DNA of 40,390 nt, taken from NCBI GenBank assembly GCA_001275005.1, contig JWZX01002902.1, positions 1 through 40,390 of the forward strand, written 5' to 3'. This document shows positions 4,383-39,421 of the stretch, one piece after another. The position numbers and the translations under genes were made by a program. This DNA comes from Chrysochromulina tobinii. Lineage: Eukaryota. The first letter of the stretch is position 1. Every line of letters starts with the position of its first letter. The notes under the pieces were generated by a model. It was not told the DNA's origin. It searched no databases and saw nothing but the letters and a program-made list of their open reading frames with translations.

Positions 4383-5819
4383 ATGACGAAGAAATCCTCC
4401 AAACACTCGCCCAAATCCTCGCCCAAGGAGCGACCACCCTCGCCAAGGCCTACGGTGATAGCCACGGCGGCTTCGCCCAGCAGGCCGGCTACACTTCCGT
4501 TTGGAGCCGGCGCCGCAGTCTTTACGGTACGCACGAGCCTCAAAGTGCGTGCCGGTGCCGAGCTCGACTCAGATCATTCGGGCGAGGTGCGGGCGGGCAC
4601 GCGCGTACACATCCTCGAGCAGCGAATGCTAGCAGATAGCACGTCTCGTTCTCGCCTGGTGCTCGAAGGCGAAAGGACAGCGCTCGGCTGGGTGAGCACC
4701 GTGAGCAAGACCGACGGCCAGAGCAATCTGCTCGAGGCACCGGCAGCTGTGCCATCCAAGGTCTTTCTCGCGCACGCCCCCGCCTCTGAGGCCTCCCACG
4801 CGAAGCCGACGTCCTCTGCGGCCGCCAGGCCGCCATTGCCTCCGCCACCTGTGCCTCCGCCACCAGTGCCTCCGCCACCAGTGCCTCCGGCTCCTAGCGC
4901 TGACGCCGCGGCCACATCGAAGCCAAAGCTGGGCGCGCGCGCGTCCACGACGCCGTGCCTGAAGCTCACGCACGCGCAGCCGAGCAACTCGACTGCCTCG
5001 CAGCGCGGCGATCCAGGCTCTCACCGTCCCGTGAATGTGAAAACCGTCCATGGGGTGAGCGGCGCGCTAGTTGTGGCGCCCATCGACACGAAGCGTGCGG
5101 CGGAGGACGAACGGCGGCGAGCGGCGTTGCGCATGATCGACTGGTCGATGTCCGAGAGCGCCGCCGTGAATCGAAATAAGATCCTGCTCACGCTGCCGCC
5201 GCCAACTGGGAGCGAGAGCAACCGAGCGGCAGTTACCGAGCGACAAGTAGCCGCTAAGAAGCTGGGCGACTTGGCGGCCCGCCTGGAGAACGCGCTACGG
5301 GAGGGGCTGGACACCGGCGTACCCGATGCCGTGCTCGAGCGCGGCATGATGCGCATCGCGGACCTCGAGCATGAGGCCGCCGAGCAGCGAAGGGCCGCGG
5401 AGGCCGCCGCCGCGACGCGTGCGGCGCTCGCGGCGACGCAGACGAAGAGCACGGCGGGTGGCTTCCGCGAAGGGTGCCTGGTGAAGCTGCACGGGCTGAC
5501 GGACAGCATCGGGCTGCAGCAGGGCGCGTTCGACGTGCCGATGGCAAAGTATAACGGTCGGATGGGTCGCGTCGTCGAGTACGCGCCGTCATGGCTCATG
5601 AAAGCCGGCGCCGATGGGCTTGCTGGTGAGTCCCCTGATGACCACTGATGACCGCTGATGACCACTGATGGCCTCTGGTGACCACTGATGAACACACGGA
5701 CTGGACTTGCAGGTGAGTCCCTCGTGGCGGTGCTGCTGGCTCCTCATGCCACCGATCGTGATCGAGCCAACGGCGTGTGGATCGCGGTGCCGCCTGCTAA
5801 CCTACAGCGATGTGAGTAA
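4383..5819 (+). CDS. Pro-rich protein with N-terminal SH3b-like domain and C-terminal algal 'VxLHGL...NGxxG...PxNL' beta domain; intron 5626-5712
   Basis: ORF 4362..5648; splicing GT(5626)..AG(5712) continues GESLVAVLLAPHATDRDRANGVWIAVPPANLQRCE* (TAA 5817-5819). LKVRAGAELDS...GTRVHILE...GWVS resembles an SH3b-type module. Confidence 0.65.
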
Positions 5820-6279
5820 AATCAATACATCCTCTTTGTCAGCAGACGTGAGAACGCCGAAGAGAGCCCTTGCAGAGAGCTCATCTCGCTCTTGTCTCGC
5901 CCTCGCCTTCTAGGCCTTAGGTCACTACGTGTCGAAGCTCGAACGGACAACTCGTCAACTCGACTAGAACCAGGACTGTATTAAATAGTTAAGTGTCAGT
6001 GCTTTGACCGATTGTACCACTGAGTATCGGGTCAATACTTAGTAGAAAAACTCTCTCACTCTCTCGATACGAGTAATTACTAGACCTAGCTTGAGCCTTG
6101 ACGTTTTTGTGTACCGACGTTAAAGCTTCAGAGGCACTGAGGCAGTTCCAAGCAGTTCCCCGCGGCGCCCGGCGGCTACTCGTGAGAGGAGTCACCCAGG
6201 TGCTTTCGGTCTTCGGAGAGGAGCCATACAGGATCAGGAGCCTCTGCCTGGTCGTGGTGCCTCTGCCTCTGCCTCTGCC

Positions 6280-8168: not shown

Positions 8169-9353
8169 CTATCTGAGGACATCAAGCCTGCCCGACCCGT
8201 CCTTCGCCGCGCCGGTGCCTCAGCACACAGTGATGACACAGGCCATCAGTAGCACTTACCTTCATGGTTGGGTCGAGGACCGATGCGTCCATCGCGTGCC
8301 TTCCACGTGCGCTCCCCCTTGGACTCCCAAATCTCGACGCCTAGGGCGTAGAGCTCCTGATGAGGAATGCAATCCGAGGCTCTCAGAGGAAATTAGAGGC
8401 CCTCGGAAGAACTAGAGGCACTCGATTGCACTCAGAGGCAATCCGAGGCACTCGGAGGAAATTCGAGGCAATTCGAGGCAATTCGAGGCAATTCGAGGCA
8501 ATTAGAGGCAATTAGAGGCACTCGGAGGAAATTCGAGGCAATTAGAGGCACTCGGAGGCACTCGATGGCGTATGAGGCACTCGGAGGCACGCTCACCTCG
8601 CGGATATCATCCGCCATGCGAAAGTCGCGTCGGACACGAGCCTTCTCCCGCTCCACAAGTTTGTCGAAGATGAACAGGTTCGTAGGCTCGCCGTCCGTCT
8701 CGGGCGGCGGCGGGGGCGGGCCCGGCGTCGGTGGCGGCTCGCCAGTCACACTCCGTGGCAGGCCCGGTCCTGAGTGGCCGGAACCCTTGCCCTTGCCTTT
8801 GCCGCCGCCACCCTTGCCGCCGCCGCCAGCATAGTCATCGTACCCATATCGCGGCGGCGGCGGCCCGTAGCCCATGCTGTGGCCGCCTCGATCATCGTAG
8901 CCGCCTCGATCATCGTAGCGCGGTGGTGGTACTCCTCCGTAACCCTTGCCGCCGCCGTAACCCTTGCCGCCGCCGTAACCCTTGCCGCCGCCGTCGAAAT
9001 AGCCACCACCGCCGCCATATCCGCCGCCATCGTAGCCACGCCGATCGTCGTACCGCCGATCATCAAAACCTGCGGCACTCCCGGGGCGTGCGGGTCAGAG
9101 ATCGGCAGCAAAGCTCTGCTCTCGTTTTCGAAGGGCGTGGGCACAGCTCACGTCGCTCGTCGTATCGATCGTCGTGTCGCCTGTCGTCGTATCGCCTGTC
9201 GTCGTATCGCCTATCATCGTAGCCTCCACCTCGCCGCTCGTCGTCCTGGCCGCGTCGGCGCTCCGGCGGCCCGTCCCTCCGCTCGGCTCTTCGGTCGGCT
9301 TCGCGGTCGTCGCGGTCGTCGCGGTCGTCGCGGTCCCTCTCGCGCTCGGCCAT
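8169..9353 (-). CDS. RD/RY/GY-rich low-complexity (probably RNA-binding) protein with C-terminal CysRS-anticodon-domain-like module; introns 9070-9151, 8357-8596 and one more near 8259 (3' end uncertain)
   Basis: MAERERDRDD..YDDRR repeats, spliced to GGGKGY repeats and poly-Pro, then KLVEREKARVRRDFRMADDIRE|ELYALGVEIWESKGERTW, matching the R..AR..DF..AD.IR..L...GV pattern of the CysRS C-terminus. Confidence 0.6.
8357..8596 (-). repeat. Intron filled with ~10-bp tandem repeats (sense TGCCTCGAAT/TGCCTCTAAT)
   Basis: GAGGCAATTC/GAGGCAATTA/GAGGCACTC arrays on +; GTGAGC donor and CCTCATCAG acceptor on the minus strand. Confidence 0.8.
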
Positions 9354-17554: not shown

Positions 17555-19876
17555 TTACCACACTGCCCTCCCGCTCCACGTACCGTTGGTCATCGGCCTC
17601 CCACGGAGTTTGGAGACAGGCACGCCACTCACCCATGCGACGCGTGGCGGCGCGTGATGGTGGCCGTGCCTCGCGCGATACTTGGCCGTGTACTCTCCTC
17701 GCATGTTGACTGCCGGCCTACTGGCATCGCGTTGCTCCTTCAGCCAGCCTGTGGGGAAGTGTGGGTTGGGGGCGGGGGGAGGGATGAGCGTGGCATGGCT
17801 GATTGAGGCTCGGGGATCGGATAGGATGCTCAAAAGGAAGGGGTTGGTCGCCCTCGGCCTCGCACATTCTCCAAACGTATGATTCCAAACGTCGGGCGCG
17901 AAGCAGACTGGCTCGGGGCAATACGTCCACGAGTGACACCTCGGGTGTGCGTCACACGCAGCGCAGCACTCGGCGGCCGAGCGCTTTCGGAACTTGGAGC
18001 CCCAAGTATGGGCCCGAACGCCATCGTAATCGGCATGCATCTCAGTGCCGCATGCATCGGTGGGTGGAGCCCAGCTGAACCGGTAATACCCAAGGGGATC
18101 GAGATTGGCTCCTTGTGCTGCGGACACGACTGCGGCGAGGGGAAGATCGCTCGGCGCAGCATGCAAGTGCTCACCACGGCGCCTCGCCATGTGGCGCCGG
18201 CCGTTGCGCCGCCGCCCCCCGCGTCTGCTGTCATCACCCTCAACCACCGCATCGTCGAGTCCCGAGAGCCGACGCGAGGCCGACCGGCTGCCGTTGAGGT
18301 GCGTGAGCAGCGCGTACACGTCATGATCGAAGCTCCCGAAGAAGAGGATCCCACCTGCCCAGACCATCAGAGGTCATCAGAGGCCATCAGAGGCCATCAG
18401 AGGTCATCAGAGGTCATCAGAGGCCATCAGAGGTCATCAGAGGCCATCAGAGATCATCAGAGGTTATCAGAGGCCATCGGAGGCCATCAGGGAGGTCATC
18501 AGAGGCCATCAGAGGCCATCAGTGACCATCAGAGGCCACCAGAGGCCACCAGAGGCCATCAGTTGTCCGTCAGCACACCATCCGTAACTGATGGAGCGCC
18601 TGATGAGAGAGGCCATCAGCGGGCATCGGAGGCCATCAGCGCACCATCCTCGCTGAGCACCGGGTCGGAGTGCACGGCGCTCCCAGTAGGGTACCTCCAG
18701 ATCTCTTGGCCCGAATGGGACGTGAGGGCATACAGCGAGCCATCGAAGGAGCCCATGTAGAGCACGGCTCCGTCGGGCGAGAGCGCCGGGCGAGAGCCCA
18801 CCTGTGCGGAAGAGTCCAGGCGCCGTGGTGAGCACTTGCATGCAGTCCCACGGCTCCGTCGGGTGAGAGCGCCGGCCGAGGGTCGACCTTGTCGCCGGTC
18901 GGGAAGCGCCAGATCAGGCTCCCGTTGTGAGTCCACACGGAATAGATGTTCGAGTCGAAGCTGCGGGGACCATGAGGGCGGCCGAGCGCTCAGGACCAGG
19001 CCGGATCAGGGTGGGAGGGACGGTTAAGAGGCCATCAAGAAGCAATTAAGAGGCAATTGAGAGGCAATTAAGATGCCATTACGAGGGGCGGTTAAGCGGC
19101 CATCCGAAGCCATCACACCTGCCAAAATAGAGCGCCGAGCCGTCCACGCTCAGTGTGAGCCCGGATTGGGCTTCCGCGCCGCAGCTGAAATTCCAAGCGG
19201 GCTTCCCACTCGCAACGTCGAGCGCGTAGACGTGATGATCGTCGGAGCCGATGAAGACGGTCGCGCCATCGACGGACAGGATCTGGTCCGACTGTACCTG
19301 AGCTCCCGTCCGGTACGTCCACTCAACGGTCCCGTCGGCAGTGTTCAATGCGTAGACAGAGCCATCGTGCGAGCCGACGATGAGCAGTGTGCCGTCCGGA
19401 GTGAGCCGGCTCTCCGAGCCAACGGCACCTCCGAGCTGTGTCCTCCACACCAAGGCGCCCGTCGAGGCAACAACTGCGTATAGGCTTGCATCGTATGCGC
19501 CAAAGTAGAGAAACCTGCCATCCTGAGCCAACGTGGCCGTCGAGCCGATGGGGCTGCCCGTCGAGTAGCGCCAGAGCTCGTGGCCATCAGTCGCACGGAG
19601 AGCAAACTCGGAGCCGTTGACTGTGCCGATGAACAGGACGTCTCCGGCCGCCGAGAGGGTGGGTCCTGCATACACTGGGCCGCCCGTCTCAAAGCGCCAA
19701 AGCCTGGCCCCCGTGGTTTCGTTGAGAGAGTAGACGCCACCATCGTCGTTTCCGATGTAGAGCTGTCCATTCAGAAGGACAGGATCGGATCGCATGGCGT
19801 CGCCCAGCGTCGCAGCCCAGAGCTCGGAGGGCTGCGGCCACAACCTTGGCTGCGACAACCACGATTGCGACTTCAT
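17555..19876 (-). CDS. PQQ/BamB-like beta-propeller repeat protein with C-terminal PAN/apple domain; introns 18961-19118, 18802-18887, 18355-18644, 17749-17865 (start may lie further upstream)
   Basis: Repeated LSxDGxxLYxGSxDGxxYAL...G..xWRxxTG units stay in register across the proposed GT-AG introns; C-terminal CGTEMHADYDG..AAECCAAC..CHSWTYC..GEC|WLK..WVSG. Confidence 0.85.
18355..18644 (-). repeat. Intron containing (GGCCTCTGAT/GACCTCTGAT)n tandem array
   Basis: ~20 copies of AG(G)CCATCAG/AGGTCATCAG on +; splicing restores LSEDG|GILFFGSFDH. Confidence 0.85.
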
Positions 19877-20527: not shown

Positions 20528-21247
20528 CTACCGGTGGGGCACGATGCCTGCATGGTAGATACGCCCGCCGTCGGCCTTTTTTGGCTCCACGACAGCAGGG
20601 AGGTCGACAGGTCCGAGTTGAGGTTTGAGGTGAGAGTAGTGAGGGTCAGTAGTTGAATCGCCACTTACGATTGCACCGGACTGGAGAAGATACTCGATGG
20701 ATACCGTGTTGTGTTGCGTTGGTGTCGCGTTCTGTTTGTACTGTGTAGCTTGTGGGGTAGTGAGGGTGGTGTTGCGCTTGACCGTCTCGATCGTGCGCGC
20801 CGCGTGCGGCGTGGTAGTGCTCAGCGGCTCGGCTGCATGCGGTGCTGCGGCAGCCGCAGCGAGCGTCTTGACGACTGTGTTCTTCGCCCAGGGCGCGCGT
20901 GAGCGTGCGGAGTCGTTGATGTCGATCGGGCTGGTGGTGCTGCGCTTGGTGGTCTCTGTCGTGCGCGCCGCGCGCGGCGACGTGGCGATGCTCGGCGGTC
21001 CGGTTGCCTGCGGAGCTGCGGAGACTGCAGCAATCATCGTAGATGTCGTCGTGTTCGATGAGTTGCTCGACGATCTTGGCGCTGAGAGGCTCTTCTTGAA
21101 GCTCTCCTTAGCGGGCTCCTTCAGGTGCCATGGTCGCTTGTACTCGTAGATGAGGTTCGGGTCGTGAGGTCTGGTCGAGGGCGCAAGGCTGCAAGGCTCA
21201 GCAGGTTCGTGCAGAGCATCGGGCACAAAGGCTTCCCCGGTGGTCAT
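20528..21247 (-). other. Thr/Ala/Ser-rich ORF of unknown origin, possibly part of a mobile-element remnant
   Basis: 239-aa ORF with an internal duplication (PRAARTTETTKRSTT / PHAARTIETVKRNTT); its 3' end shares 26 identical nt with the downstream minisatellite. Confidence 0.3.
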
Positions 21248-21756
21248 CCCGTCCGGGCTACCAATGATGAGCTTCAGGGTGTACGGCTTGATTGGACATA
21301 ACTGGAACTGGATTACTGGACTGGTTGACTGTCAGGCAGGGCCTGACGCGACGGATCTATGGGGCAGGCGGCAGCAGATGCTGGCCTTTCTATCTCGAAC
21401 GCTACGTACCTTCTCACGGTGCCCGCCGGAAACGGCGGTGGTTTCAGATTCGGCCTATGAACGATCCGGAATGCGTGTGTCGTCCGAGCGAATTGTCCGG
21501 AAAATCTCAGGGGGCCGACGCATCGCGTCGGTCATCCAGTAACATGGCGGTTACTTGTGTATGAAGAGGTTTGAGACGTATGTCGTATCAGACCGTCCCG
21601 CGTCCTGCGGCCCTGTGTCAGCCATCTGTCAGCCGCAGCAGCTCTTGCGGCTTGAACCGGTTTCCTACAAAAATTAAAACTCCGATATTTTCCTATTATA
21701 GGTTGCCCACTGTCGGCCTGTCACTGCAAACTGGCTCTACGACAGCGGCGAGCGGG

Positions 21757-22100
21757 GGTCAGCGGCACGCAGACGCACATCACCCCTCCAGGCCGCCCCC
21801 CACCCGCACCGGCTTTATGGTAGATACGCCCGCCGTCGGCCTCACAGGCTCTGCGACAGCGGGTCAGCGGCACGCAGACGCACATCACCCGCTCCAGGCC
21901 GCCCCCCACCCGCACCGGCTTTATGGTAGATACGCCCGCCGTCGGCCTCACAGGCTCTGCGACAGCGGGTCAGCGGCACACGCAGACGCACATCACCCCT
22001 CCAGGCCGCCCCCCACCCCGGCCACCCTGGTAGATACGCCCGCCGTCGGCCTCACAGGCTCTGCGACAGCGGGTCAGCGGCACGCAGACGCACATCACCC
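21757..22100. repeat. Minisatellite, ~105-bp unit, ~3.3 copies
   Basis: GGTCAGCGGCAC..CAGACGCACATCACCC starts at 21757, 21862, 21968 and 22072. Confidence 0.9.
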
Positions 22101-22328
22101 CAGGCCTCCCCCCTGAGACCGTGGACAGACTCTGGCTTTCAGGTGCAGGTGGTGCCGTCGTCGTCTAGGTGCAGCGGCGTGCGCATCAAGGCGCAGCAGC
22201 GTCACCAGGATCCAGGTCCTTACCAACCCTACCCTCACACGCGTTAGCGCATGGCGTTCTTGTCACGTCCTTGAGGAAGAAAACCATCGCAGTCGGAACA
22301 TGAGCACGCCTGTGCGCTGTGAGCGAGC

Positions 22329-26251: not shown

Positions 26252-27893
26252 ATGATCAACTTCGCCGAAATTCAGGACAACATCGAGCACTTACAAACAC
26301 GGGAGCAGGCGATGGCGGCGATTCTCAGCCGGCTCGAGACGACGGTGGCGACACTGTGTGCGAGCTCGCGCGTGGACGAGATGGAGCAGCGATTCAAGGA
26401 TACTTTTGAGCAGCAGCACCGCGCGCTCGAGCGCCTCGACGTCGCGCAGCAGATTGCCGCCAAGGTCGTAGAGGAGATGCCAACCATCCAGCGCGACTTG
26501 ATGGCGAAGCTGGCCGAGGTGGAACAGACGGGCGCGGTCAAGCTGTCGGAGCTGTCGGAGAAGCTGGGCTCGCGGCTGACCAGATGCGAGCTCGAGGTGC
26601 GCCAGAAGGCCATGGACAAAGACCTGCAGCAACTCTCCGCTGCACTGAATGACTGCTCGAAAAAGGAGGAGGTCGATAAGATGCAAATGACGCTGATCAA
26701 GGTGCGCGATGAGGTGTCGCTGCGCATCGACAGCGTTGGCGAGAGCACGAACAAGATGCGCAAGGAGCTCGACACGGGCCTCGAGGCCATCACCGCGACC
26801 AGTGAGGCCATCACCAAGCAGGTCTCCGAGCGGACGAAGAAGCTTGAAGAGGAGTCGGCGCAGCTGCAAACGTTTGTGAGCAAAGCCGAGCGCGCGCTCG
26901 CGTCCAAGGTGTCGGCGGAGGAGCTGAACGCGGTGAAGACGGCGTTCGCGGCCCAGCTCGAGGAGACGCGAAACGTGCTCCGCTCCCAGCTCGACATTGC
27001 ACGCGCCAAGGCGGAGAGCGCCCTGAATGAGCTGACCAAGGTGAGCGTCGTGCTGCAGAGCGTCGCGGGGCAGGAGGAGATGGACAAGCTCAAGAACGCG
27101 ATCTCGTCGGTGCAGGCGTCGGCAATCAAGTTCGAGGAGAGCCTCAAGACCAAGGCGGACATGGAGCCCGTCGAGGCGCGCCTGACCGACCTCTTGATCG
27201 AGCAGAAGGCGACGCGCGCCGACCTGTCAACCAAGGCCGATGAGGCCGCTGTCAACGTTAAGATCCAGGGAGTCGTGAGTGCGTCGAGCGGCGAGCTGAT
27301 CAAGCTGCGGGATAGCACGGGGACGCTCCAGGTGTCGGTCACCGCCCTCGAGCAGGCGATGGTCCTCATGAGCCACCAGACGCAGCAGAAGGCCGATCAG
27401 CGCGAGGTGGGAGAGCTGCGCACAGTTAACGAGGCGATCTCGGAGCGGGTCGGTGCTCTCAAGGAGGAGTTGCAAGGTATGAGGACCCATGATTGCCTCT
27501 CAAGATGACCCATGATTGCCTCTATTGAGAACCGATGACGTCGGTGCTCTCAAGGAGGAGTTGCAAGGCATGTGATGACCCATGATTGCCTCGGATGGCC
27601 TCTGATGGGCCCTGATTGCCTCCCTCATCAGGGACGCTCTCGAAGCTCGAAACTTGGATCTCGTCGATGAATACCAAGAAGGGCAACAACATCAAGCTGC
27701 AGCCGCCGCCGCCTTCAGAGCCCGGCGGATCACAACCGTCCTCCAACGGCGCTCACAACGGCGCCGCGAAGCCGAAGCTGACCCCGCCTCAATCCATCGC
27801 GCCGTCTGGATCACAAGCCGTCGCCCCGTACCAGCCTCCTGCCCAGCAGATGAAGCCGACGCCGCCTCCCGCACGCCCCGCAACACCGCCACC

Positions 27894-27924
<31 letters not shown>

Positions 27925-28416
27925 CCGCCACCGCCGGCGCAGCTCAGCGGCCAGCAGCAGCAGCAGCTCGATTCGCTGCAGGCCGCGTCACGCGCCGCCC
28001 TTGCTCCTATGCTCGCTCAGGAGCTGCATCGGCTGCAGACGCAGGCGGCGACGGCGACAATGACGGCCGAGATGAGGAGCCGGCTCGACGCCCTCGAGGC
28101 ACAGGCCGCCTCCTCCCTCGCGCCCGAGCAGGCTCAGTTGATGTTGGATCTCCAGGCCCAGCAGCAAGAGCAAGCCCGACAGATGCGCGAGATGCAGGAG
28201 CAGCATCAGGTGTGATTGCCTCGGATTGCCTCTGATGGTCCTTGATTTGGCACAGTACCGCCTCGGATTGCCTCTGATGGTCCTTGATTGCTTCCCTCAT
28301 CAGGCTCAGATGGCGCAGTACCAGGCACAGCTTGCCGCGCAGCAGCAAGCCGCGAGCGCGGTACCACTGGCTCCAAAGGGAGGCAACACAGCGCCGAATA
28401 TGCTGGGCGGCATGTT

Positions 28417-28468
<52 letters not shown>

Positions 28469-29299
28469 TTCAGTAGCGTGGACGAGGTGCTGCGCACGCG
28501 CGCTGCGGATGAGGCACTTCGCGCGCGCGTGGCGGAGCTCGAGCGTCAGCTCTCCGAGACCCTCACGTACGTCGCGCGCATCGAGAAGGCCGCTATGGCC
28601 AGCAGCGGCCCCCGCGGCGGCGGCGGCGGAGGCGGAGGCGGAGGCGGAGGCGATGGTGAGCTTTCGGGCAGCTTCTCGCCGCCGATGCAGCCGTACATGC
28701 TCGCCGGCCGGATCGATGCGAGCGGTATGCTCCCTGTCGGCGCACCGCCCGACCCGACCGTCGGAGGGTATGCCAGCGGTGGCGGGTACGCTGCCACCGC
28801 CGGATTGACGGCCTATTTCCCGCCCAATTCGAATGCGTCCGTTGGAAGACCTTCGCCCATGTATGCGGCCCCTGTGGCGCCCCAAGGCTACCTGCCGAAC
28901 GCGTCTCCGGGGCCGGTGGTACTCTCGCCGCGCACGCAGCGCACCAAGCACGCGGGCGGCGCACAGGCGCTCACCGCCGCGGCCGCCGCCAACCAGAGCA
29001 GTAAGGTAGCGAGCGCCACCGACCTCGGTGAATGGGACGACCTCGCCATTGGCGAGCCGGGCCATGCGGGAGGCCGGCAGCCCGGCGCGCCGCCGGTGCC
29101 GCCGTTCCGCTCGCAGGCCGACCGGCGCCAGTGGCTCCTGTCCGAGAAGCGTCGCTGGCTCGTCGAGATGCGCCTGGGCAACACCCCGGCCGAGCCCGTC
29201 GCCTTGCCGGTAGAGAAGCTGCCGCCCATATCTAGGAGCACGCTCGAGGCGGTGCTCGTGGGCGGCATGAGAGTCGACACGCTGGTGACGCCGCGCTAG
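26252..29299 (+). CDS. Long coiled-coil protein with Pro/Gly/Gln-rich C-terminal half; introns 27477-27631 and 28210-28303
   Basis: Heptad-rich ORF 26237..27508 (KADxxxV repeats) joined in frame to ORFs 27616..28215 and 28226..29299 via GT..CCTCATCAG introns. Confidence 0.8.
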
Positions 29300-29344
29300 A
29301 TGGCCAGGGTACAACAAAGTTGAAAGTAACTTTGTGGAATAAGT

Positions 29345-29471
29345 GAATCGTGTCAGTTGACCCATACCGAACGCGCGCCAGGCTATCTTGAATCGTGTCG
29401 GTACACTCGCAGCGCAGACCGTCCGACCCACACCTAGGGGAGTGATCCGCACATTCACATTCACACATCAC
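29345..29471 (+). mobile_element. Possible retroelement 3' end with (CACATT)n tail
   Basis: Intergenic segment ending GATCCGCACATTCACATTCACACATCAC; internal repeat TGAATCGTGTC x2; no clear TSD. Confidence 0.3.
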
Positions 29472-29550
29472 GTTAACACCACGCCAGCAGGAACCAGGAT
29501 GGACTGACTTTGCCCCGATTCGTGAGTTCCCCGAAGCCGGCACATAGAGG

Positions 29551-30738
29551 ATGGACACAGCGGAGCGATCTCTCGGCATCGCCGTGCTACCGCTCGGCGG
29601 CGATTTGCAGGTGGTCGGCATAGGCATGTCAGGGGTATGCAGCTACATGCCGTGCCGTCCATTCCAATTCAAATTTACACTCTCATGCCACCGCTGCCCT
29701 TGCTCACAGACTGCCGCAGCGATTGCTGAGGTCGTTCTCGAGCGACTTGACTCATCCCACCATCTGTCCAGTGTTGTTCATCATGATTGGAATGCGGCGA
29801 CCGACGCTGACGTGATCCTCTTCGTGATCGAGGTCGAGTCTGATGGCAGTCCGAGCGAGACAGCGAGAAAGTTTCTGCGCTCGCTCAAGAAGCAGCCGCC
29901 ACCGCTGGGCGGCGCGTTGGACTCGAAGCGCGTGGGCGTGCTGGCGCTGGCGCGAAACGTGTGTGCCTTCTCTGCGGGGAGCGGGGGCTCCAACAAATAC
30001 AGCGGCGCCGCTAAGCTGCAGAAGGCGCTCATCGACGCGGGCGCCACACTGCTGGTGCCGATGGGCAGCGCTGAGGTGGAGATGGAGGAGGTGGAGGTGT
30101 CAATCATTCCTTGGGTGGATACGGTGGCCGACGCGTGTGCCGTCGTCCAAGCGACGCCTTGGACTACAAACGCTGCCGAGCATGCGCGGCCATCGGCCGT
30201 CGCGGAACCGAGATGCGATCTCACCACAGTCGCTCGGCCGAGATGCGATCTCACCACAGTCGCGGCAACGAGATGCGATCTCACCACAGTCGCACGGCCG
30301 TGCGTTGGAGATGCATGCGTTGGAGATGCATGCTGCGAGGCCCACGGTCCAGGAACGCATGCATCAGTCTTGCCGAGCAGATCGTCCGACGTGCGCAATA
30401 AAGATGGGTCCTCGCCCGGCCCTGTGACGGTGCTCGCGCCGGACACGCAGATCCAACCGGACCGGATTAGGAGCGGTAGCCCACTTTGGGATGCGCTGAC
30501 GGGAGGCTCTTGGATGCATGCGTTGACGATGCTCGCACTAGTGGGTGTCGCTGCTTGCGCAGTCGTGATGGCGCGTGGGGAGCGGGCAAGAGGAAGAGGC
30601 GCGCGCGGCGTGAATGGGCGCTTCGCGCGCGCATCGGCCTCGCCTTGCACTGCCGTCACGGCGAGCCCCCCGCCACCGCTACGAATGATGCCGAAGCGAA
30701 GGCTATACGGTTCAGGTCCGCCGTCACATACGACATAG
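29551..30738 (+). CDS. Flavodoxin-fold protein (resembles FMN domain of diflavin reductases) with C-terminal TM; probable in-frame intron 29611-29709
   Basis: TAAAIAE, VILFVIEVESDGSPSETARKFLRSL, LDSKRVGVLALA, AAKLQKALIDAGATLLVPMG, IIPWV; TM WMHALTMLALVGVAACAVVM. Confidence 0.65.
   Translation: MDTAERSLGIAVLPLGGDLQVVGIGMSGVCSYMPCRPFQFKFTLSCHRCPCSQTAAAIAEVVLERLDSSHHLSSVVHHDWNAATDADVILFVIEVESDGSPSETARKFLRSLKKQPPPLGGALDSKRVGVLALARNVCAFSAGSGGSNKYSGAAKLQKALIDAGATLLVPMGSAEVEMEEVEVSIIPWVDTVADACAVVQATPWTTNAAEHARPSAVAEPRCDLTTVARPRCDLTTVAATRCDLTTVARPCVGDACVGDACCEAHGPGTHASVLPSRSSDVRNKDGSSPGPVTVLAPDTQIQPDRIRSGSPLWDALTGGSWMHALTMLALVGVAACAVVMARGERARGRGARGVNGRFARASASPCTAVTASPPPPLRMMPKRRLYGSGPPSHTT
30209..30293 (+). 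repeat. Coding 30-bp tandem repeat x3 (RCDLTTVAxx)
   Basis: CGAGATGCGATCTCACCACAGTCGC at 30209, 30239 and 30269. Confidence 0.9.
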
Positions 30739-31099
30739 GTTCCGAGTGGTCCTTTCCAAGATTCGTACGTCGGGTACGGTACCCAGTTTAAAGTCATTTA
30801 TCATACGTCTCCAGCACACTTTCGTTCGTAACGAACGGAATCAGCCCACCACACTCACGTCGGAGCGTCTAGTCGGAGTAAAATACATCCAACAAGTGAC
30901 TTTCGATGTCTTCTCCACGAACCTCAACCATGAGTCTTGGACAGGCTTGTCAACAGGCCCGGCCGTTGCCCCCCCCACAATGAGCTACATATAAAGAATG
31001 CATGCAACTTACACTTCTTCACAGAAAAAGCTGCGAAAGTCGCGTCTTCCTGCGAAACGCCGTGTGCTATTTGCGCACGCTGTCGACGTTCTTGTCACC

Positions 31100-34000
31100 A
31101 TGGCACTTTCACTCCTACCCATCAGCATCTTCGTCCTCATCCTCTACAACGCAGACGCAGCACCCATCCTCGCCACCAATGCCAGCGTCAACTCCGCCGC
31201 TTCGGCAAAGGCAGTGGCAGCCACCGCCTCCTCCACTCGCCGCTCCCTGAAACAGGAGCGCCAGGCGCCCCAGCCACAACAGCAGAAACCGGACCCCAAC
31301 TGGAAGCCGCCAGACCCGATGGCCCTCGCGACGTGGAAGAACTCGGGCCACGACTCTGAGCTCCACGACGAGACGGAGATCATGCCAGATGACTTCCTCT
31401 GGCAAAACCTTCCCGGCCGCTGCTGCTTCACCGGCCACTGGGACAACCAGCGAAAGGATAAGGCCGGCGGACCGCTGTGGGTGAGCATCCACGATTGCAG
31501 CCAGTGCGACGTCTGGGGGCAGCCAGACGCGACGTGCCATAGCGGACCCACGGAGTGTATGACGTATGTCGCCGCTCACGCTTCGCACGCGCACTCACCG
31601 CTCACACGTCTCGCTCAGATGTGCCCATGCTTAAGACGCTACCGTGCCGCTTCGCTCCCCCCTCTCTCACCCTCTCTCCCTCTCTCTCTCTCTGGCCAAC
31701 AACCACGCACCTGCAGGTGCGGAATGGAGTTGTACTGTGAAGGGCGGCCACCTCCGTTGCTGGGTGGCGCCCGGACGTGCACCGGCGCATCGCGCATCGG
31801 CGAGGGCTGCTTCGACATGCTCAAGATGGGCGTGTGCATGAGCAGGGGCCTCGATGAGTGCATGCAACAGTGCCAAACGACGCCCAACTGCGAGATGGTC
31901 GTCTACTACACGCAGGAAATGAAAGGGTCATGTACACTGTGCGCCGAGCTGAGCTCGATCCGCGAGGCGAGGTTGATGACCACTGAGGGCCCTCTGATTG
32001 GCACGGATGAGCCCTAATTGCCTACTTCATCAGGTGCGCTGACATGAGCTCGACCGAGGCGACGCCACACGAGACCACGCGCATCTATGCTCGCCAGCCC
32101 GCCCCGCCCCCGCCTTCCGAGCCACAAGACAAAGGGAAGCATTATGGGTACAACATCGACTCGAGTCCCAGGCCGCCGCCGCCGCCGCCCAGGCCGCAGC
32201 TCGGTCTGAAGGCTCCGCCCGCGCCGCTCGAGCACATGGGCTGGAATTCCAAACAACACTTTGAGTGTACTTTCGAGGATCAGATCGAGTACACAGTGAG
32301 CTCTGATGGCCCCTGATTGCGGTCTGACCCCTGTTTGCCGCCTTCGAGGATCAGATATCATATAGACGACCCTCTACGAGTACCCCTCTGCATGCAGGTG
32401 AACACAGCGATAGGGTACACGGACAGGCAGGCGGCAACCCGCCTCGAGTGCTGCAACTTCTGCGGGCTGCAGCCGGGGTGCGGTGACTTTGTCTTCCAGC
32501 CGTCGACAGGCCTGTGCGTGCTGCTCCCGGGAGCTTCTGAGGTCGTCAAGATACCTAACTCGCAGGTGGTTTCGGGCACCGTGTCGGTGGCGCTGCTGCG
32601 CCCAGAGGCGCTCGAGCATGGCGACTGCGTCTTCACGCCAGGTGCGCTGACGACGCCCTGATGGCACCCTGATGACGCCATTATGAAGCCATGATGACGC
32701 CCCGATGACGCCCTGATGACGACTTGATGACGCCCTGATGACGCCCTGATGACGCTCGAGCACGGTGGCTGCGTCTTCGTGCCAGGCTCGGGGTACACGA
32801 ATGGCAAACTCGACGTGGCGGGAGTCCCGAGCGGTCGGAAGCCCATCTTGACGAAGCAGGACTGTTGCGATGCATGCATGGCCGACACACGCTGCGCCAA
32901 GTTCTCGTTTCGGCCCGACTCGCATGCATGCGAACTCTTCGAGCCCCTCGCCGAGGAGTACGCTGGTTGCCTCTGATTACCTGCACCGATGGCCTTCCTG
33001 ATTGCCTCTGATTACCAGCACCGATGGCCTTCCTGATGGTCTCCATGGGTAAGTGCCTCTGATGACCTCCCTGATGACCTCCCTGATGGCCTCCCTGATG
33101 TGGCCTCCCTGATGGCCTCCCTGATGGCCTCCCTGATGGCCTCTGATGGCCTCTGATGGCCCCTGATGACCTCCCTGATGGCCTCCCTGATGGCCTCTGA
33201 TGGCCTCTGATGGCCCCTGATGGCCTCCCTGATGGCCTCCCTGATGGCCTCCCTGATGGCCTCTGATGGCCTCTGATGGCCCCTGATGACCTCCCTGATG
33301 ACCTCCCTGATGGCCTCCCTGATGGCCTCCCTGATGGCCTCCCTGATGTGGCCTCCCTGATGGCCTCGCTGATCAGGTTCACGACCGATGGAGTGATCTC
33401 GGGCATTTTAGCCGCTCGGTACGTGGCCGACGGAGGGCATGCCGTCGGCATTGCCTCCGGCCAGCACGCTATCGCAGGGGGCATGTCCGGTGGGCACGTG
33501 GGAGCTGCCCAAGGGGGCGGCGGCGGCGGCTACGGCGGCGGCGGCTCGTCGTTTGGCGGCGGCGTCGTGTTGGGCGGTGGCGTCGCGTTGGGCGGTGGCG
33601 TCGTGTTGGGCGGCGGCGGCTACGGCGGCGGCGGCTCGTTGTACGGGGTCGAGGAGCTCTATCCCCCCATGCCACCCGCGCTCACGGCACGTGACGCCAT
33701 CAAGCCCCCCTCTCCGCCCCCCGAGGGCTCCATGCTGCAGCAACGCCTCATGTCGGCCCTCGCTCTCGGACTCGGAGGTCTGATGCTCGCCGGGTTCGTC
33801 ATGTGCTTCTACTGCTTCTTCTCGCAGGTGACCAGCCCGCTGACTGGCACACGATCTGCCGCTTGATTACATCTGTCTTTCTTCATCATCTGCTTCTGCA
33901 TCTCCTGCTTCATCTCCTGCTTCCCACAGGACCTTCGCAAGCTGCTCGGTGTGGAAGTGACGCCCCCCGGCTTCGTCAAGCCCGGTAACGCCGTGGAGGA

Positions 34001-35307
34001 CGGCAGCGGCACCGAAGGCGAGCTCGACGCTCTTGACGATGCGGAGCATGAGAAGAGTCAGAAGAGACCCACCAGGACGGGCCAGGAGGTCTCAGTGACG
34101 TGTCAGACCTCCTCCATCACCCAGACGCAGCACGTGCCGCTCGCAGACTGTCTCGAGTGCGCCGCGACCCCGTTCAGCTCTACATCAGCTCTTCAGCTCT
34201 ACTTTCGTAGTGCCGGATGACCACTGAGTGCCCTCGGCTCGGCACTGATGACCACTGATTACCTCCGTCATCAGGTGTGCCGACCTCCTCGAGCTCATCT
34301 CGATGCTCGCGGAGCTCTTCCCCGCCGTCATGCGGAATCAGCGCAAAGAGCGGATGCTACTCATGTGCCGACTCACCACCCTCGAAAGGGCGACGAGGGG
34401 TGGCACGGCCAGCGCCAAGGCAGCGGCAGCGGCGGCGGTGGGCGGCGGCGGCGGCGGCGGCGGCAGCGGCGGAGGCGGAGGCGGAGGCGGAGTCGGAGGC
34501 GGAGGCGAAGGCCGCGGTGGCGGCGGCGGTAATGGTGGCGGCGGCGGCGGCCGTGGCAGCCTTCCAGTCGCCGACGACGGCTGGATGCTGGTCACCCGCC
34601 ACTCCGACCTGAGCCACATGCTCAGCAGCTGCGCCGCCCTTCGGCTGCTCGAGCGCCCTGCGGACTTTCGAGAGGATGCTCACGTGCTCGCCTTCGTGCC
34701 CGAGGGCGCCGTCATGGGCACCGTCTCGGGCAGGCGCGGCGGCAAGGCGCGGCGCGAGAAGGCCGAGGACAGCTCGGGGGAATCGGCTGTGGCGGCCGCC
34801 ACCAAAGGCAAGCGCGCTGTCCTGGGCGAAGCTGTGAAAGCGGCCAACGGTAAGCGCCGTGATGAGCGCGACACGACACGACGCGAGAAGGCGGGCGACG
34901 CTCAGGACGACGCGAGGTTGGGTCTGCTTGCGGGCGAGGACGACGCTCAGGACGACGCTTATGACGAGGGAGACGAAGACAGAGAACCTCCGACCTCCCA
35001 CACCAGCCGCCAGCGTCATCACGAGCCTGCGCCTGGGCAAAGGAGCGTCTGGGAAGGGGACGACCCGATTTGGTCGTCGCCGACTGAGTCGAGAGCCGCG
35101 TCCTCGGCCTGCACGCGAAAGGCGCCCAGCATGGCGCCCAGCAGCGGCGGCGGTGGCGGGCGCGGGCGGACTCGGGAGGGCGTCGAGACGAATGCGGCCG
35201 CGCCGCTGCCGCTGCACCCGCCGGCGTGCCTTATTTTCGATCAGATGATCGATCATGCACAGCAGCAGCAGCGTCGCTCGATGGCAGGGGTGGCTGGCAT
35301 GGACTGA
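31100..35307 (+). CDS. Single-pass cell-surface protein with multiple Cys-rich PAN/apple-like domains; introns 31564-31716, 31939-32033, 32296-32397, 32642-32785, 32958-33376, 33828-33929, 34157-34274
   Basis: Signal peptide MALSLLPISIFVLIL; ECMQQCQTTPNC, ECCNFCGLQPGC..F.F...CVL, DCCDACMADTRC..F.F...CEL; TM ALGLGGLMLAGFVMCFYCFF; all proposed GT-AG introns preserve frame. Confidence 0.75.
32958..33376 (+). repeat. Intron with long (CTGATGGCCTCC/CTGATGGCCT)n array
   Basis: Roughly 30 CTGATG-core units of 10-12 bp; splicing gives AEE|FTTDGVISG. Confidence 0.85.
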
Positions 35308-35547: not shown

Positions 35548-36228
35548 TCAGCTTCCCATTCGGGCAATCATCTCAAGGAGGTCATGGTGGCCATCGAGCT
35601 TGAGCAGCATGCTCTCAGTGCCCAGCCGCGCGTGCGTGCCCATGGCGAGCATTAAGAGCCGCGGACGCCACCAGCTCAGCACCAACGCCGCTGCCGAGCC
35701 CTCGGCCGCCTCGCCTTTGGCGTGCAGCTCGCGCGCGAGCGAAAGCGGCGTGGGGTCGCCGGGTGCGGACGAGGCGGCGAGGATGGAGGCGCCTTTGCGG
35801 AGGAGGGCGTGGGCGCGGGCGGCGGGGATGATGGTAAGGTGGTGGAGCGGCGTGGTCCATTTGCAGGAGGTGACGAGCCATGCGGATAGGTTGGTGTTGC
35901 CAAAGCGCGTTGCCCTCTCCTCCGCCGTGCCGTTGGTTCCGTGGATAGTGAAGGCGCGCTCGGCACCGTAGGAGGAGACGAGTCGGACCCATAGGAGGTC
36001 ATAGGCGCAGGCGTTGCTCATCGGCGTGTCACCATACTTGCCGGCCTTATTCACATCGGCACCGTGCTCGAGAAGCACAGTGCCGATGTCGAGGTGGTTG
36101 AAATTGATGGCCCACAGCAGCGCCGTGTAGCCGTGCTCGTCGATCTGATTGATGCCCGCGCCCTCGGCGAGCAGGTGCCGCACCTTAGCGGTATCGCCAC
36201 GCTTGACTGCATCGCCCAGCGGCGCCAT
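35548..36228 (-). CDS. Ankyrin-repeat protein (226 aa)
   Basis: LGDAVKRGD..VRHLLAEGAGIN, GYTALLWA..NHLDIGTVLLEHGADVN, GDTPM, TPLHHL. Confidence 0.88.
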   Translation of the reverse strand: MAPLGDAVKRGDTAKVRHLLAEGAGINQIDEHGYTALLWAINFNHLDIGTVLLEHGADVNKAGKYGDTPMSNACAYDLLWVRLVSSYGAERAFTIHGTNGTAEERATRFGNTNLSAWLVTSCKWTTPLHHLTIIPAARAHALLRKGASILAASSAPGDPTPLSLARELHAKGEAAEGSAAALVLSWWRPRLLMLAMGTHARLGTESMLLKLDGHHDLLEMIARMGS

Positions 36229-36624
36229 CTCGAAGTAATGTCCGTTGTCCCCGTTTATTCCCAGATAAGTAATTTATTAACTTGCATGTCTTGTTCCAGC
36301 GAAGAAACCATCAGCACTTCAGAAGACCGGGAGCGTGCGCGTCAAAAACCGAGAATTCTCTGCTTTTCCGCTCTCCTTACGTTCTTGACTTACGTTGTAT
36401 TACAAGTGGCCAGTCCTCGGGACGCAAACTCACCACGAACCCGACCTGTGATTGCCCAACGGTCGATGATCTGGACTGAAACTCTGCGCTGCTCTCTAGC
36501 GGATACTGTATTCGTCGCACGTTGGTTCGCGAAGTTCGGAACGCAAGCGTGAAGCGGAAACCCAGCGTCCACCAGTCACGCTCGTGGCTAGGCTGGACCA
36601 CCAGTCAGTGCTGTCGCCTCCTGC

Positions 36625-39421
36625 TCACGCCTCGTGCTCCTTGACGGTCTCGTCAAAGTCGCACAGCCGCGCAGCCGCAAAGTCGAGCAGCCCTTCCCTT
36701 CGCCCCTCGGATGTACACGCTGCCGCCTGTGCGGCCACCTGTGCGGCCGCCGCCTGCGCCGCGACCACATCGGACAAGGGGCTGCGCCCGCCCTTTGCAT
36801 CCGACGACATTTGGGGTGGCGTGTTCTGGTCCGCGTCGGGCGCGCCCGCTCGTGCAAGGGCCCTCTGTCGCTGTGTGGCTGCCTGCACGGCGTGGTCGTG
36901 TCGTCGTACGCCCGCCATCTGGTCGGCGACCGCGCTGCCCAGCGACTGCTCGAGACGGCGCGCGGCGCGCCGGCGCACCTCGTACAGTGTGAAGGACACG
37001 TAGATGGCCGCCGCAATCAGAAAGGACGCGAGGAAGATGGCGTCGAAGAAGTGGTAGTAGAACTCGAACTCCAGGCCGCGTGCGGCCTCATGGATACCCT
37101 GACGAAACGCATTCGACAGAGAGCCCCTCATCATGAGGACAAAGGAGAGTGAGCGCAATCAGGGCGTCATCAGAGACTCATTACCTGACGGAACTCGTGC
37201 GGCAGAGAGCCCCTCATCATGAGGACCGAGGAGAGGAGGTAGAAGCCCATCAGCTCGGCTGCCGCCGCTCCGACCAAGTCGGCCAGGCCCGCCACCGGAG
37301 CGTCTGCGGCGTCGTCGCCCTCCTCCAAGCCCTCCTCCTCGAGCGCTTGCTGCATGCAAGTGCTCACCACGGCGCCCTGCTCCTCGAGCGCCGTGAATGA
37401 GCCGCCGCCGCCACTGCCGCCACCGCCACCGCCGCCGCCGCCGCCATCGCCACCGCCTCCGCCGCAACCGCCATCGCCACCATGCCCATCGGGCATGCCC
37501 GATGCGGTGGCTCTGCCCGATGCCGTGGCTCTGCCCGGCGTGGCCATCGTCATCGCCGGGGTCCTCAAGCTGGCGTCGGGCGTCGTGCTGAGCACCCGAC
37601 GTGTCACGGAAGAGGAGTGAGCTCCACTGGCGCAGAGGGTCCTGCTGCTGATGCTGCTGCTGCTGCTGCTACCCACTCTCAAGGCGCTGGCCGTGGTCGG
37701 TGACGAGAACACGTCCGCCGCCGCCGGGGCTACGGGTTGATCCGCTTTCGGCGCGGCGGCCGGTGTGACGAACCCCGTGTGCAGGCTCGCGTTGGAGCCG
37801 TTCACACCGTTGGAGCCGTTCACGCGTGCGCGGCGTGCGGCGAGACGCTCGCGACGGCGCTGCGCATGTCGCTGCTCGAGCAGCTCTATATTCATCGCCA
37901 CGCGGCTCGCCTACAACCGGAAGTTATCAGAGGTCATCAGAGGTCATCAGAGGTCATCAGAGGTCATCAGAGGCCATCAGAGGCCATCAGAGGCCATCGC
38001 CAGGCGGCTCGCCTACAACCGGATCATCCGAGGCCATCAGAGGTCATCAGAGGCCATCACCTGCACCAGGAAACCGCGGACAGAGCTGAAGACCATGATG
38101 CCAGTCAACCAAAGCGAGACACCCTGAGAGTAGAAAGCGGCGGCGGCTGGGTCGAGCAGCGAGTCGATGGCGCTGTGGTGAGCGCTTGCATGCAAGGCAG
38201 GTCATCAGTGGCAATCAACGTACCTGGGTCGAGCAGCGAGAGGCGCAGCGCGTAACCGATGGCACGAGTCACCGGATCCACGCCCGTGCGCCGCGCGCCG
38301 TGCTGCAAGATCGAGCGAACCGCCAGACCCACCTTGACGACGCAATAGCCCGAGAAGACGTCTCCAATCACGCTGAGCGCACGCCCTAACAAGGTCGACG
38401 CTTGACGTAGGCGCTTCTCCTCATCGAGTAGGCGCGCAAAGGCCCCCACCTCGCGACGCACGGCCGCGCGAAGCTCGAGCGACTCGCCCTGTGCCGCGCG
38501 CAGCTCGCCCAGCGCCTCATTTTGCGAGGCCGTCCGGAACAGTCTCGGCTTCAGAATCGGGAGCGCGGCGATCGCCACCTTACCCAACGCGCTCGCCGCG
38601 CCGTACCAGTCGCACTGCTGCACGGCGAGGCACGTGTTCTGCCACTTTTCGCTCCACACGCTCGCCGCAGCCTCGATGCGCCGTTTGCGACCCTCCTGCG
38701 AGGCCGCGATTCGCCTTCGGATGCCGCGCAGCCGCAGTCCATGTTTGGCCAGTCGCTGCAATGCATGCACGAGCGCCCGCTGCGCCTCGTCGAGCTCGGT
38801 TGGGTCGTCGACGTGCAGCAGCCGGCGCAGCGAGATGGAGAGCCCCGCAACCGCGCCGACGCCCGACATGAGCGCGGAGAGGCACACGCCGAAGACGCCC
38901 GCCGACGAGAGGCAGCGCGAGAGCAGCTGCGAAAAGATCGTGTCGCCCTTGTCGGCGGCGCCGCGCGTCGTCGGTAAGGTCTCGTCGACCTTGAGGAAGA
39001 GGTAGAGCCATGCGAGCATGGCTAGCAGTACGGGTGGCAGCACGGCACGGGCTAACAACCGGTACCGGTTCAAGACGCGCCGCATCACGAGCGTGAGCAG
39101 CACGTACGGCAGCACGAGCACGATGAGCGCGAGGTCGACGCCCAGGTGCAGCCGCCAGAGCATGAAGCGCGCGCGCGCCGGCAAGCCGCCGTTGATCTCG
39201 AGTAACACAAGCAGCAGCAGTGCACCCGATGCGGCGAACGTGAGCGCAAAGAGCCGGCGTGGCAGCAGGTTGCCCGGCACGTGCATGACGAGTGAGAAGA
39301 GCATGTGCCCGACCAGGTAGAGCGGCGCGGAGATGAACGCGACGAAGGAGGTCTCGGAGAGCACCACGCCTTGCAGGTAGAGGGGTGCGGCTGGCACCTC
39401 GTCCATGAGGGACGTGCTCAT
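36625..39421 (-). CDS. GPR89: Golgi pH regulator / GPCR-type G protein (GPR89/GPHR/GTG/COLD1 family); introns 38147-38223, 37911-38060, 37099-37184
   Basis: LFALTFAASGALLLLVLLEI, GVFGVCLSALMSGVGAV, FSGYCVVK, DPVTRAI, SQGVSLWLTGIMVFSSVRGFL, AELMGFYLLSSVLMMRGSLPHEFRQ|GIHEAARGLEFEFYYHFFDAIFLAS. Confidence 0.9.

What the first reader, a model, noticed from the sequence alone, without database searches (positions are those of the whole stretch)
5626..38223. Many introns are built from a duplicated copy of the neighbouring exon edge plus stereotyped filler: candidate intron-genesis system
Seen in sequence: in 5 unrelated genes, about 12 predicted introns contain a copy of the adjacent exon boundary. 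The intron 3' end copies the upstream exon end in 32642-32785 (~33 nt, diverged), 37099-37184 (~51 nt, diverged) and 38147-38223 (17 nt exact). The intron 5' end copies the downstream exon start in 5626-5712 (9 nt), 18802-18887 (~39 nt), 31939-32033 (~30 nt) and 34157-34274 (~11 nt). An internal copy occurs in 27477-27631 (29 nt exact), 37911-38060 (28/29), 32296-32397 (14 nt), 28210-28303 (11/12) and 18355-18644 (donor copy). The rest of each intron is CTGATG-core repeat and/or a shared 25-bp motif. Established: tandem duplication of a proto-splice site and double-strand-break repair are proposed intron-gain routes but are rarely seen at scale, and Introners (Micromonas, Aureococcus) are near-identical elements with short TSDs, unlike these. 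Inference: a recurrent mechanism (staggered break or templated end-joining plus a shared filler template) creates or remodels introns here.
Basis: partly seen in the sequence, partly recalled or inferred. Interest (0 to 1): 0.9.

Follow-up and report, generated by a model that had tools for sequence, protein, structure and literature searches.

The report
Algal introns born from exon duplications
In the alga Chrysochromulina tobinii many introns carry a 17-52-base copy of the neighbouring exon edge around a filler of short intron-type repeats, and two of them appear to be missing from a close sister lineage, so a duplicating repair process likely keeps creating and reshaping introns here.

Summary
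The window is a Chrysochromulina tobinii contig. All 12 introns are GT..AG and give open frames. Eight of 12 exon copies beat every control. 5626 passes an in-register test, 28210 is marginal, and 18355 and 34157 are chance. Independent assemblies and wild alleles carry the nine introns they cover, so these are not artefacts.

Unspliced gene calls from metagenomes imply that 38147-38223 and 5626-5712 are absent from a sister lineage (94-97% protein identity). 38147 is also absent in three distant relatives (36, 42, 81). These two have the least decayed copies. 27477 and 37911 are instead older introns duplicated across a splice site.

The fillers share a vocabulary but are not an Introner family: 26-61% identity, no terminal inverted repeats, variable duplication length (80). 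Best reading: staggered-break repair that duplicates the site and patches in pieces of other introns. It resembles Daphnia neointrons but has longer repeats and a recognisable filler. Sister-lineage DNA was not seen directly and RNA support is thin. The scan noted a similar intron earlier in this genome (e1-2577349).

The parts
5626..5712 (+). Young intron. Direct repeat 5615-5634 / 5702-5721 (18/20) spans the junction and supplies both splice sites; 67-nt CTGATGACCA filler; apparently absent in the sister lineage
   Evidence: read-through alleles; spliced in annotated models P0047 and P0048
18355..18644 (-). Repeat-filled intron of the PQQ/BamB-repeat gene; the claimed donor copy is not above chance
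18802..18887 (-). Intron whose first 39 nt copy the downstream exon start (34/39); the 26-nt motif and a pyrimidine tract supply the acceptor; some alleles carry the cassette twice
27477..27631 (+). Older intron with a tandem duplication across its donor (28 exon nt plus 23 intron nt, copy from 27540); present in the sister lineage
   Evidence: joined form in run X15 and unspliced wild allele in X14
28210..28303 (+). Intron of two filler copies around a 12-nt piece (28248-28259) matching the downstream exon 11/12; marginal
31939..32033 (+). Intron whose first 32 nt copy the downstream exon start (25/32); filler supplies the acceptor; absent in relative P0141
32296..32397 (+). Intron with a 14-nt exact copy (32343-32356) of upstream exon 32272-32285; absent in relative P0141
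32642..32785 (+). Intron whose last 33 nt copy the upstream exon end (28/33) and supply the AG; 11-nt CTGATGACGCC filler
33828..33929 (+). Unflagged intron with a possible 24-nt decayed copy of the upstream exon end (18/24; low complexity)
34157..34274 (+). Filler-bearing intron; the claimed 11-nt copy is not above chance
37099..37184 (-). Intron whose last 51 nt copy the upstream exon end (44/51); shared with the sister lineage, where the copy decayed differently; absent in P0001
37332..37391 (-). In-frame exonic insertion: 26-nt motif in antisense within 30 nt, between two 15-nt direct repeats (14/15 here, 15/15 in L004)
37911..38060 (-). Older intron with a tandem duplication across its acceptor (28/29, copy at 37995-38023); present in the sister lineage, same position in P0002, absent in P0001
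38147..38223 (-). Young intron of the GPR89/Golgi pH regulator-like gene. 17-nt exact copy of the upstream exon end supplies the AG; 60-nt filler supplies the donor, repeats and the motif; apparently absent in the sister lineage and three distant relatives
18158..18183 (+). Fourth copy of the 26-nt motif, antisense inside a predicted exon, with no clear flanking repeat
32958..33376 (+). 419-nt intron that is mostly CTGATG-core array, with no exon copy: filler without duplication

Best explanation
These introns carry 17-52-nt copies of the adjacent exon edge around a shared repeat filler, and they likely arise when a staggered break or pair of nicks in a gene is filled in (duplicating the site) while a short patch, probably copied from other introns, is captured between the copies. 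Shown: the duplications, the shared filler and the sense-strand bias. In six introns (5626, 18802, 31939, 32642, 37099, 38147) the copy supplies one splice site or both and the filler supplies the rest, so splicing restores the original mRNA exactly. Indirectly shown: two such introns are absent in relatives. Inferred: inserts survive when the result is a spliceable GT..AG unit or is in frame (the antisense exonic insert at 37332-37391). Inferred: the same duplicating process hits existing introns, giving copies across a donor (27477) or an acceptor (37911) and allele-specific internal repeats. Inferred from general knowledge of U2 introns: the CTGAT/CTAAT repeats and the GCTCAC in the 26-nt motif act as branch-site-like signals, and the TGA triplets put stops in unspliced RNA. 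The repair enzymes and whether the patch template is DNA or RNA are untested.
For: Ten of 22 introns have exon copies at p <= 0.004, and six show an in-register donor/acceptor repeat. For 38147: 12 of the 15 listed members of cluster 1 read into the intron. Sixteen proteins of a second haplotype (LLEPD) read straight across the site and stop in the next intron; the nine in cluster 3 lie on 42 contigs up to 45,555 bp. P0006 (60% identity) is contiguous there. P0001 and P0002 are contiguous in a shifted frame, scoring 158 and 157 against shuffle maxima of 113 and 105. For 5626: 9 of 15 listed members (32 contigs, up to 35,946 bp, marker GPAGES) lack the intron, 4 read into it and 2 are spliced annotation models. 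The two restricted introns have the least decayed copies (17/17 and 18/20); three shared with the sister lineage are 78-86%. Relatives at 50-72% identity run off frame at nearby but different sites, as if they had their own introns there (P0136-P0138, P0141). Fillers have no fixed ends or length. Secondary duplications segregate among alleles of 38147, 18802 and 31939. Fill-in of 3' overhangs is a shown source of small tandem duplications in mammalian cells (PMC8355091, abstract).
Against: Intron absence rests on read-through of unspliced gene calls, not on sister-lineage DNA. The four DNA loci fetched all belong to the intron-bearing lineage. 5626 has no outgroup, and direct repeats could equally mediate precise loss. 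Filler arrays were found in no intergenic DNA (about 7.9 kb) and almost only sense, which orientation-blind DNA insertion does not predict without strong selection. Junction microhomology was significant at only 1 of 12 filler ends. About half of the introns with filler show no exon copy, so filler and duplication may be partly independent. RNA support is one contig each for 27477 and 38147, and the latter could be an intronless allele. The sample is one 40-kb window with hand-annotated introns.
Confidence: 0.55

Rival explanations
1. The fillers are short non-autonomous mobile elements, for example intron-derived RNAs inserted by a non-LTR retrotransposase or a HUH-type element, whose insertion makes variable-length target-site duplications. 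This would be an atypical Introner.
For: Variable duplications around an insert are typical of target-primed reverse transcription (own knowledge) and of Replitron-1 in Chlamydomonas; one Replitron locus is reported in C. tobinii (PMC10288648, passages). The 26-nt motif recurs at four places in 40 kb and at the end of an unrelated contig, followed by a pyrimidine tract and CAG (L007). The filler is confined to transcribed introns. An earlier unchecked scan note reports over a hundred related repeat-flanked introns.
Against: Six fillers of 34-110 nt share only 26-61% global identity, with no common ends and at most 1 nt of terminal inversion. Duplications of 33-52 nt are long for a transposase. 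Copies across existing splice sites (27477, 37911) need no insert. No autonomous partner was looked for or found.
Confidence: 0.25
2. Plain tandem duplication of exon sequence makes the intron, or remodels an old one. The filler arises afterwards by mutation to a branch-site-like repeat, slippage expansion and conversion among introns. There is no captured patch.
For: In 32642 the filler end aligns with the exon just upstream of the duplicated unit (p 0.01), as if a longer duplicate had turned into repeats. 27477 and 37911 are plain duplications across splice sites. Strict sense bias and intron confinement fit selection on splicing signals. Many filler introns lack exon copies.
Against: The youngest intron (38147, 17/17 exact) already holds 60 nt of filler that includes the shared 26-nt motif. 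No intermediate without it appears among the 12 intron-reading alleles listed. The other 11 filler ends show no exon similarity. The exonic insert at 37332-37391 has the motif between two 15-nt repeats.
Confidence: 0.14
3. All these introns are old. Duplications only remodel them, and the intronless alleles are losses by deletion between the direct repeats.
For: The 37911 site is shared with P0002 at 46% identity. Six introns are shared with the sister lineage. Direct repeats favour precise deletion (own knowledge). 5626 has no outgroup.
Against: 38147 is missing in the sister lineage and in P0001, P0002 and P0006. 31939 and 32296 are missing in P0141, and 37099 in P0001. Several independent losses would be needed.
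Confidence: 0.05
4. The duplications are assembly or haplotype-collapse artefacts.
For: The reference is a 454/Illumina draft (PMC4580454, passages). A 90-nt exonic repeat differs in copy number among assemblies. No long reads were seen.
Against: L001 and L002 match the window at 99.98-100% over 28-40 kb. L004 (99.1%) and L003 (97.9%) keep the introns they cover. Copies are diverged from the exon and decay differently in different lineages. A lake contig spans intron 27477 with its internal copy.
Confidence: 0.01

Closest known systems
Neointrons from staggered double-strand-break repair in Daphnia pulex (PMC4202315, passages read)
   Same: [quoted passage not shown]
   Different: Daphnia repeats are 4-12 bp (33 cases) and the insert source is mostly unknown. 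Here repeats are 17-52 nt, the insert comes from a vocabulary shared with other introns, and close to half of the introns in the window are affected.
[quoted passage not shown]
   Same: A duplicated exon edge supplies splice sites. 5626 duplicates a proto-splice site; 27477 and 37911 duplicate across an existing boundary, as in potato.
   Different: Those are isolated cases made wholly of duplicated sequence. Here 34-110 nt of foreign filler separates the copies in six introns and the pattern recurs in unrelated genes.
Introners (PMC9860276 and PMC12130899, passages; bioRxiv 10.1101/2020.10.14.339549, first part read)
   Same: One splice site is carried by the insert and the other recruited from the duplicated target, as in the Chrysochromulina sp. 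MAG family with 4-bp TSDs.
   Different: No end-to-end similar family, no fixed TSD length, no TIRs. C. tobinii is in the 2022 survey's genome list, and that row is the only 'tobin' hit in the stored supplement, which was cut when stored.
10-11-bp tandem repeats in Emiliania huxleyi introns (Read et al. 2013; recalled, paper not held)
   Same: As I recall, short-period, strand-biased repeats concentrated in haptophyte introns.
   Different: I recall no link there to exon-edge duplication or intron birth; not checked.

Membership tests
Introner | Family of introns similar along their whole length | tested here: not met
   15 filler pairs, 26-61% global identity, lengths 34-110 nt
Introner | Family-specific short TSD (about 3-9 bp) or none | tested here: not met
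   Duplications of 17-52 nt, different at each site
Introner | Terminal inverted repeats (in many families, not all) | tested here: not met
   0-1 nt in six fillers
Introner | Creates introns at positions empty in relatives | tested here: met
   38147 and 5626, by read-through of unspliced gene calls; indirect
Introner | Copies outside genes or an autonomous partner | tested here: inconclusive
   No arrays in about 7.9 kb intergenic DNA; no genome held
Daphnia-type staggered-break neointron | [quoted passage not shown] | tested here: met
   Six introns in register
Daphnia-type staggered-break neointron | Presence/absence among close relatives | tested here: met
   Two introns, indirect
Daphnia-type staggered-break neointron | Secondary internal duplications in young introns | tested here: met
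   Alleles P0012, P0014, P0016, P0021, P0023 (38147); P0143, P0146, P0148, P0156 (18802); P0091 (31939)
Daphnia-type staggered-break neointron | Repeat length in the reported 4-12 bp range | tested here: not met
   17-52 nt; this is the variant feature
Daphnia-type staggered-break neointron | Origin by break repair (enzymology) | not testable with these tools
   Also only inferred from footprints in Daphnia
Rogers-type tandem duplication | Duplicated AG|GT supplies both splice sites | tested here: inconclusive
   Fits 5626 (18/20 across the junction); the others take one site from the filler
Rogers-type tandem duplication | Intron consists only of duplicated exon sequence | tested here: not met
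   34-110 nt of filler in all six
Non-LTR retro-insertion (SINE-like) | Shared 3' end or tail with variable 5' truncation and an autonomous LINE | not tested
   Needs the genome; five introns share a 3' end in (C/T)TCATCAG but no element was defined

The most novel reading that the evidence does not exclude
Chrysochromulina has an ongoing, element-free intron factory. Breaks in transcribed genes are patched with fragments of the cell's own introns, possibly from intron RNA, between long duplications of the site. A large share of its introns are therefore born this way, and existing introns seed new ones without any transposon.
Probability: 0.3. Interest if true: 0.88.

Novelty: new variant of a known kind. 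Interest (0 to 1): 0.66.

Why it matters
The source of the sequence in newly gained introns is a long-standing open question. Daphnia neointrons mostly have no traceable source (PMC4202315), and recent surveys attribute bursts of gain to transposons (PMC12130899). Here both halves of a new intron are traceable: the duplicated exon edge and a filler shared with other introns. The footprint is dense (10 of 22 introns) and comes with an age series from exact to decayed copies. Wild populations hold intron-bearing and intronless lineages, and the species is in culture with a 59-Mb genome (PMC4580454). A genome-wide test of repair-driven versus element-driven gain is therefore directly feasible. 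Introner pipelines that require whole-intron similarity would miss this class.

Tried and rejected
No whole genome is held, so no genome-wide scan was possible. Motif scans of viral contigs found nothing or one contig end (L007). The prokaryote genome scan gave two bacterial hits that I took as chance and did not examine (L005 and L006). The record behind L004 is not held, and its 9.6 kb beyond the window held no repeat arrays. The one metagenome scan returned only intron-bearing alleles. The wide protein search for PQQ-gene relatives never ran, so 18355 and 18802 have no outgroup. Exact look-ups missed 4 of 10 and 7 of 10 ORFs, so 28210 could not be tested. For 18355, 18802 and 34157 no listed allele lacked the intron. 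No reads were laid on 4.2-20.1 kb, and DNA run X1 could not be read. Rfam gave no match. Junction microhomology was significant at 1 of 12 ends. The motif folds only weakly (about -5 kcal/mol). P0004 and P0026 lack 38147 but have the window's LLDP haplotype; they may be partly spliced RNA and were not counted as intronless alleles. The 18355 and 34157 copies were rejected as chance. Literature searches (up to 20 titles listed each) showed no paper describing this pattern in haptophytes, but most subscription journals are not in the library.
Full report
Source. A protein search with the first exon of the gene at 36.6-39.4 kb returned a 100% match named Golgi pH regulator of Chrysochromulina tobinii, on a contig of 40,390 bases. 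The window is therefore a piece of that haptophyte's draft genome, a 454/Illumina assembly (PMC4580454, passages). No whole genome was held.

Observation. All 12 intervals are GT..AG. Splicing them gives open frames in five unrelated genes: an unnamed gene, a PQQ/BamB-repeat gene, a coiled-coil gene of 932 aa, a PAN-domain gene of 1024 aa and the GPR89-like gene. I annotated 10 more introns by hand as a comparison set; the list may be incomplete. Against 500 shuffles, 261 coding windows and the other introns' flanks, 8 of the 12 flagged copies pass clearly, 28210 passes narrowly, and 5626, 18355 and 34157 do not. One of the 10 unflagged introns (33828) passes. An in-register comparison of donor and acceptor regions rescues 5626 (18/20, above all 462 mismatched pairs). 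It also shows the same architecture at 18802 (36/41), 31939 (17/20; 1 of its 42 mismatched pairs scored as high), 32642 (29/34), 37099 (45/52) and 38147 (17/17). 27477 and 37911 are a different type, a duplication that spans an existing donor or acceptor. 18355 and 34157 are rejected.

Not an artefact. Two other assemblies match the window at 99.98-100% across 28-40 kb. Wild alleles at 99.1% and 97.9% keep the introns they cover. A lake contig spans intron 27477 with its internal copy. For the three flagged introns below 20 kb the evidence is read-through proteins from several contigs, not DNA.

Splicing. Annotated models splice 5626 (C. tobinii and C. parva) and 38147. The Pfam ABA_GPCR profile runs across the 38147 junction. 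Lake RNA runs gave one contig skipping 155 nt at 27477 and one skipping 77 nt at 38147. Only contigs were available and three of four runs were read. The 38147 joint could come from intronless DNA.

Gain or remodelling. The protein collection holds unspliced gene calls, which run into an intron when the DNA has one. At 38147, 12 of 15 listed members of the window's cluster (30 members in all) run into the intron. Sixteen proteins of a second haplotype, about 96-97% identical, cross the site cleanly and then stop in the next intron, on contigs up to 45,555 bp. Three distant relatives (P0006, P0001, P0002; 45-60% identity) also cross it. At 5626, 9 of 15 listed members (42 in all), about 95% identical and on contigs up to 35,946 bp, lack the intron; there is no outgroup. 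The sister lineage has 27477, 31939, 32296, 32642, 37099 and 37911. P0141 (72%) lacks 31939 and 32296. P0001 lacks 37099 and 37911, and P0002 has an intron at the 37911 site. Copy identity follows this order: exact or nearly exact in the two restricted introns, 78-86% in three shared ones. The 37099 copy has decayed differently in the two lineages. All of this is indirect, because the sister lineage's DNA was not fetched.

The filler. The six in-register introns hold 34-110 nt between the copies. Pairs share 26-61% global identity, with no common ends and no terminal inversion. They draw on a shared vocabulary: 10-12-nt CTGATG/CTGATT repeats, a 3' end in TCATCAG and the 26-nt motif. The repeats occur 82 times sense and once antisense in introns and form no array in about 7.9 kb of intergenic DNA. 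In 18802 and at the end of contig L007 the motif is followed by a pyrimidine tract and CAG, and its GCTCAC lies 32-37 nt before the AG. I read it as a branch-site cassette, from general knowledge of U2 introns; this is untested. Where the copy supplies the AG, the filler supplies the GT, and the reverse. One motif copy sits antisense and in frame in an exon between 15-nt repeats that are exact in L004. This suggests the same event can occur without making an intron.

Mechanism. The best-supported reading (0.55) is fill-in repair of a staggered break that duplicates the site and captures a patch from another intron, with splicing as the filter. Fill-in at 3' overhangs makes small tandem duplications in mammalian cells (PMC8355091, abstract only). 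Against it, the filler is confined to the sense strand of introns, microhomology is rare (1 of 12 ends), and many filler introns lack an exon copy. An atypical mobile element with variable TSDs remains open (0.25). So does plain duplication followed by repeat expansion (0.14), which fits 32642.

Comparison. It works like the Daphnia neointrons (33 exon-edge repeats of 4-12 bp among 90; PMC4202315, passages) and overlaps the tandem-duplication model (PMC4974935, passages). It fails the Introner tests of family identity and fixed short TSD (PMC9860276 and PMC12130899, passages; bioRxiv 2020.10.14.339549, first 10,000 characters). C. tobinii is in the 2022 Introner survey's genome list with no other 'tobin' hit in the stored supplement, which was cut, so a listing could be hidden. 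Eight literature searches showed no description of this pattern in haptophytes. The Emiliania intron-repeat report is recalled only. An earlier unchecked note of this scan describes a 15-nt-repeat-flanked intron elsewhere in this genome and favours a mobile family. I reached my reading before seeing it and did not test it.

Verdict. A real, dense footprint of intron birth and remodelling by local duplication plus shared filler; a new variant of a known kind. Interest 0.66.

Noticed in passing
window 27449-27477 and 27540-27568: One lake contig (run X14, depth 5.2) has the same T>A change in the exon (27454) and in the intronic copy (27545), a hint of conversion between the copies or of a separate duplication event. 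One site, one contig.
   Followed up: no
window 33516-33637: An in-frame 90-nt exonic unit bounded by a repeat of about 31-34 nt occurs 1, 2 or 3 times in L004, the window/L002 and L001, and is skipped in X14. Real copy-number variation or an assembly effect.
   Followed up: partly
proteins P0001, P0002, P0006, P0136-P0138, P0141: Orthologues at 45-72% identity appear to have introns a few codons apart from each other and from the window's. P0001's intron holds a different short repeat. This suggests frequent independent gain across these haptophytes.
   Followed up: partly
window 8357-8596 and 18961-19118 (minus strand): Introns filled with a related 10-11-nt repeat with a TAATTGCCTC core, without an exon copy.
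   Followed up: no
window 31564-31716 and 17749-17865: Predicted introns whose length is a multiple of three and that can be read through in the coding frame; candidates for retention or intronisation.
   Followed up: no
window 26252-35307 and 36625-39421: The public annotation seems wrong here. P0140 fuses parts of three genes, and P0003 ends inside intron 37911 although the frame continues to about 830 aa.
   Followed up: partly
window 21756-22101: A 106-nt tandem repeat of 3.3 copies in a gene-poor stretch, with a partial copy near 20550.
   Followed up: no
L007:4495-4554: A viral-collection contig ends in the 26-nt motif, a pyrimidine tract and CAG; probably a chimeric end.
   Followed up: partly
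window 1391-3757 (minus strand): An intronless frame that looks like an aminotransferase fused to a nucleotide-sugar dehydratase (labels from reading the translation by eye, not from a call); possibly of bacterial origin.
   Followed up: no
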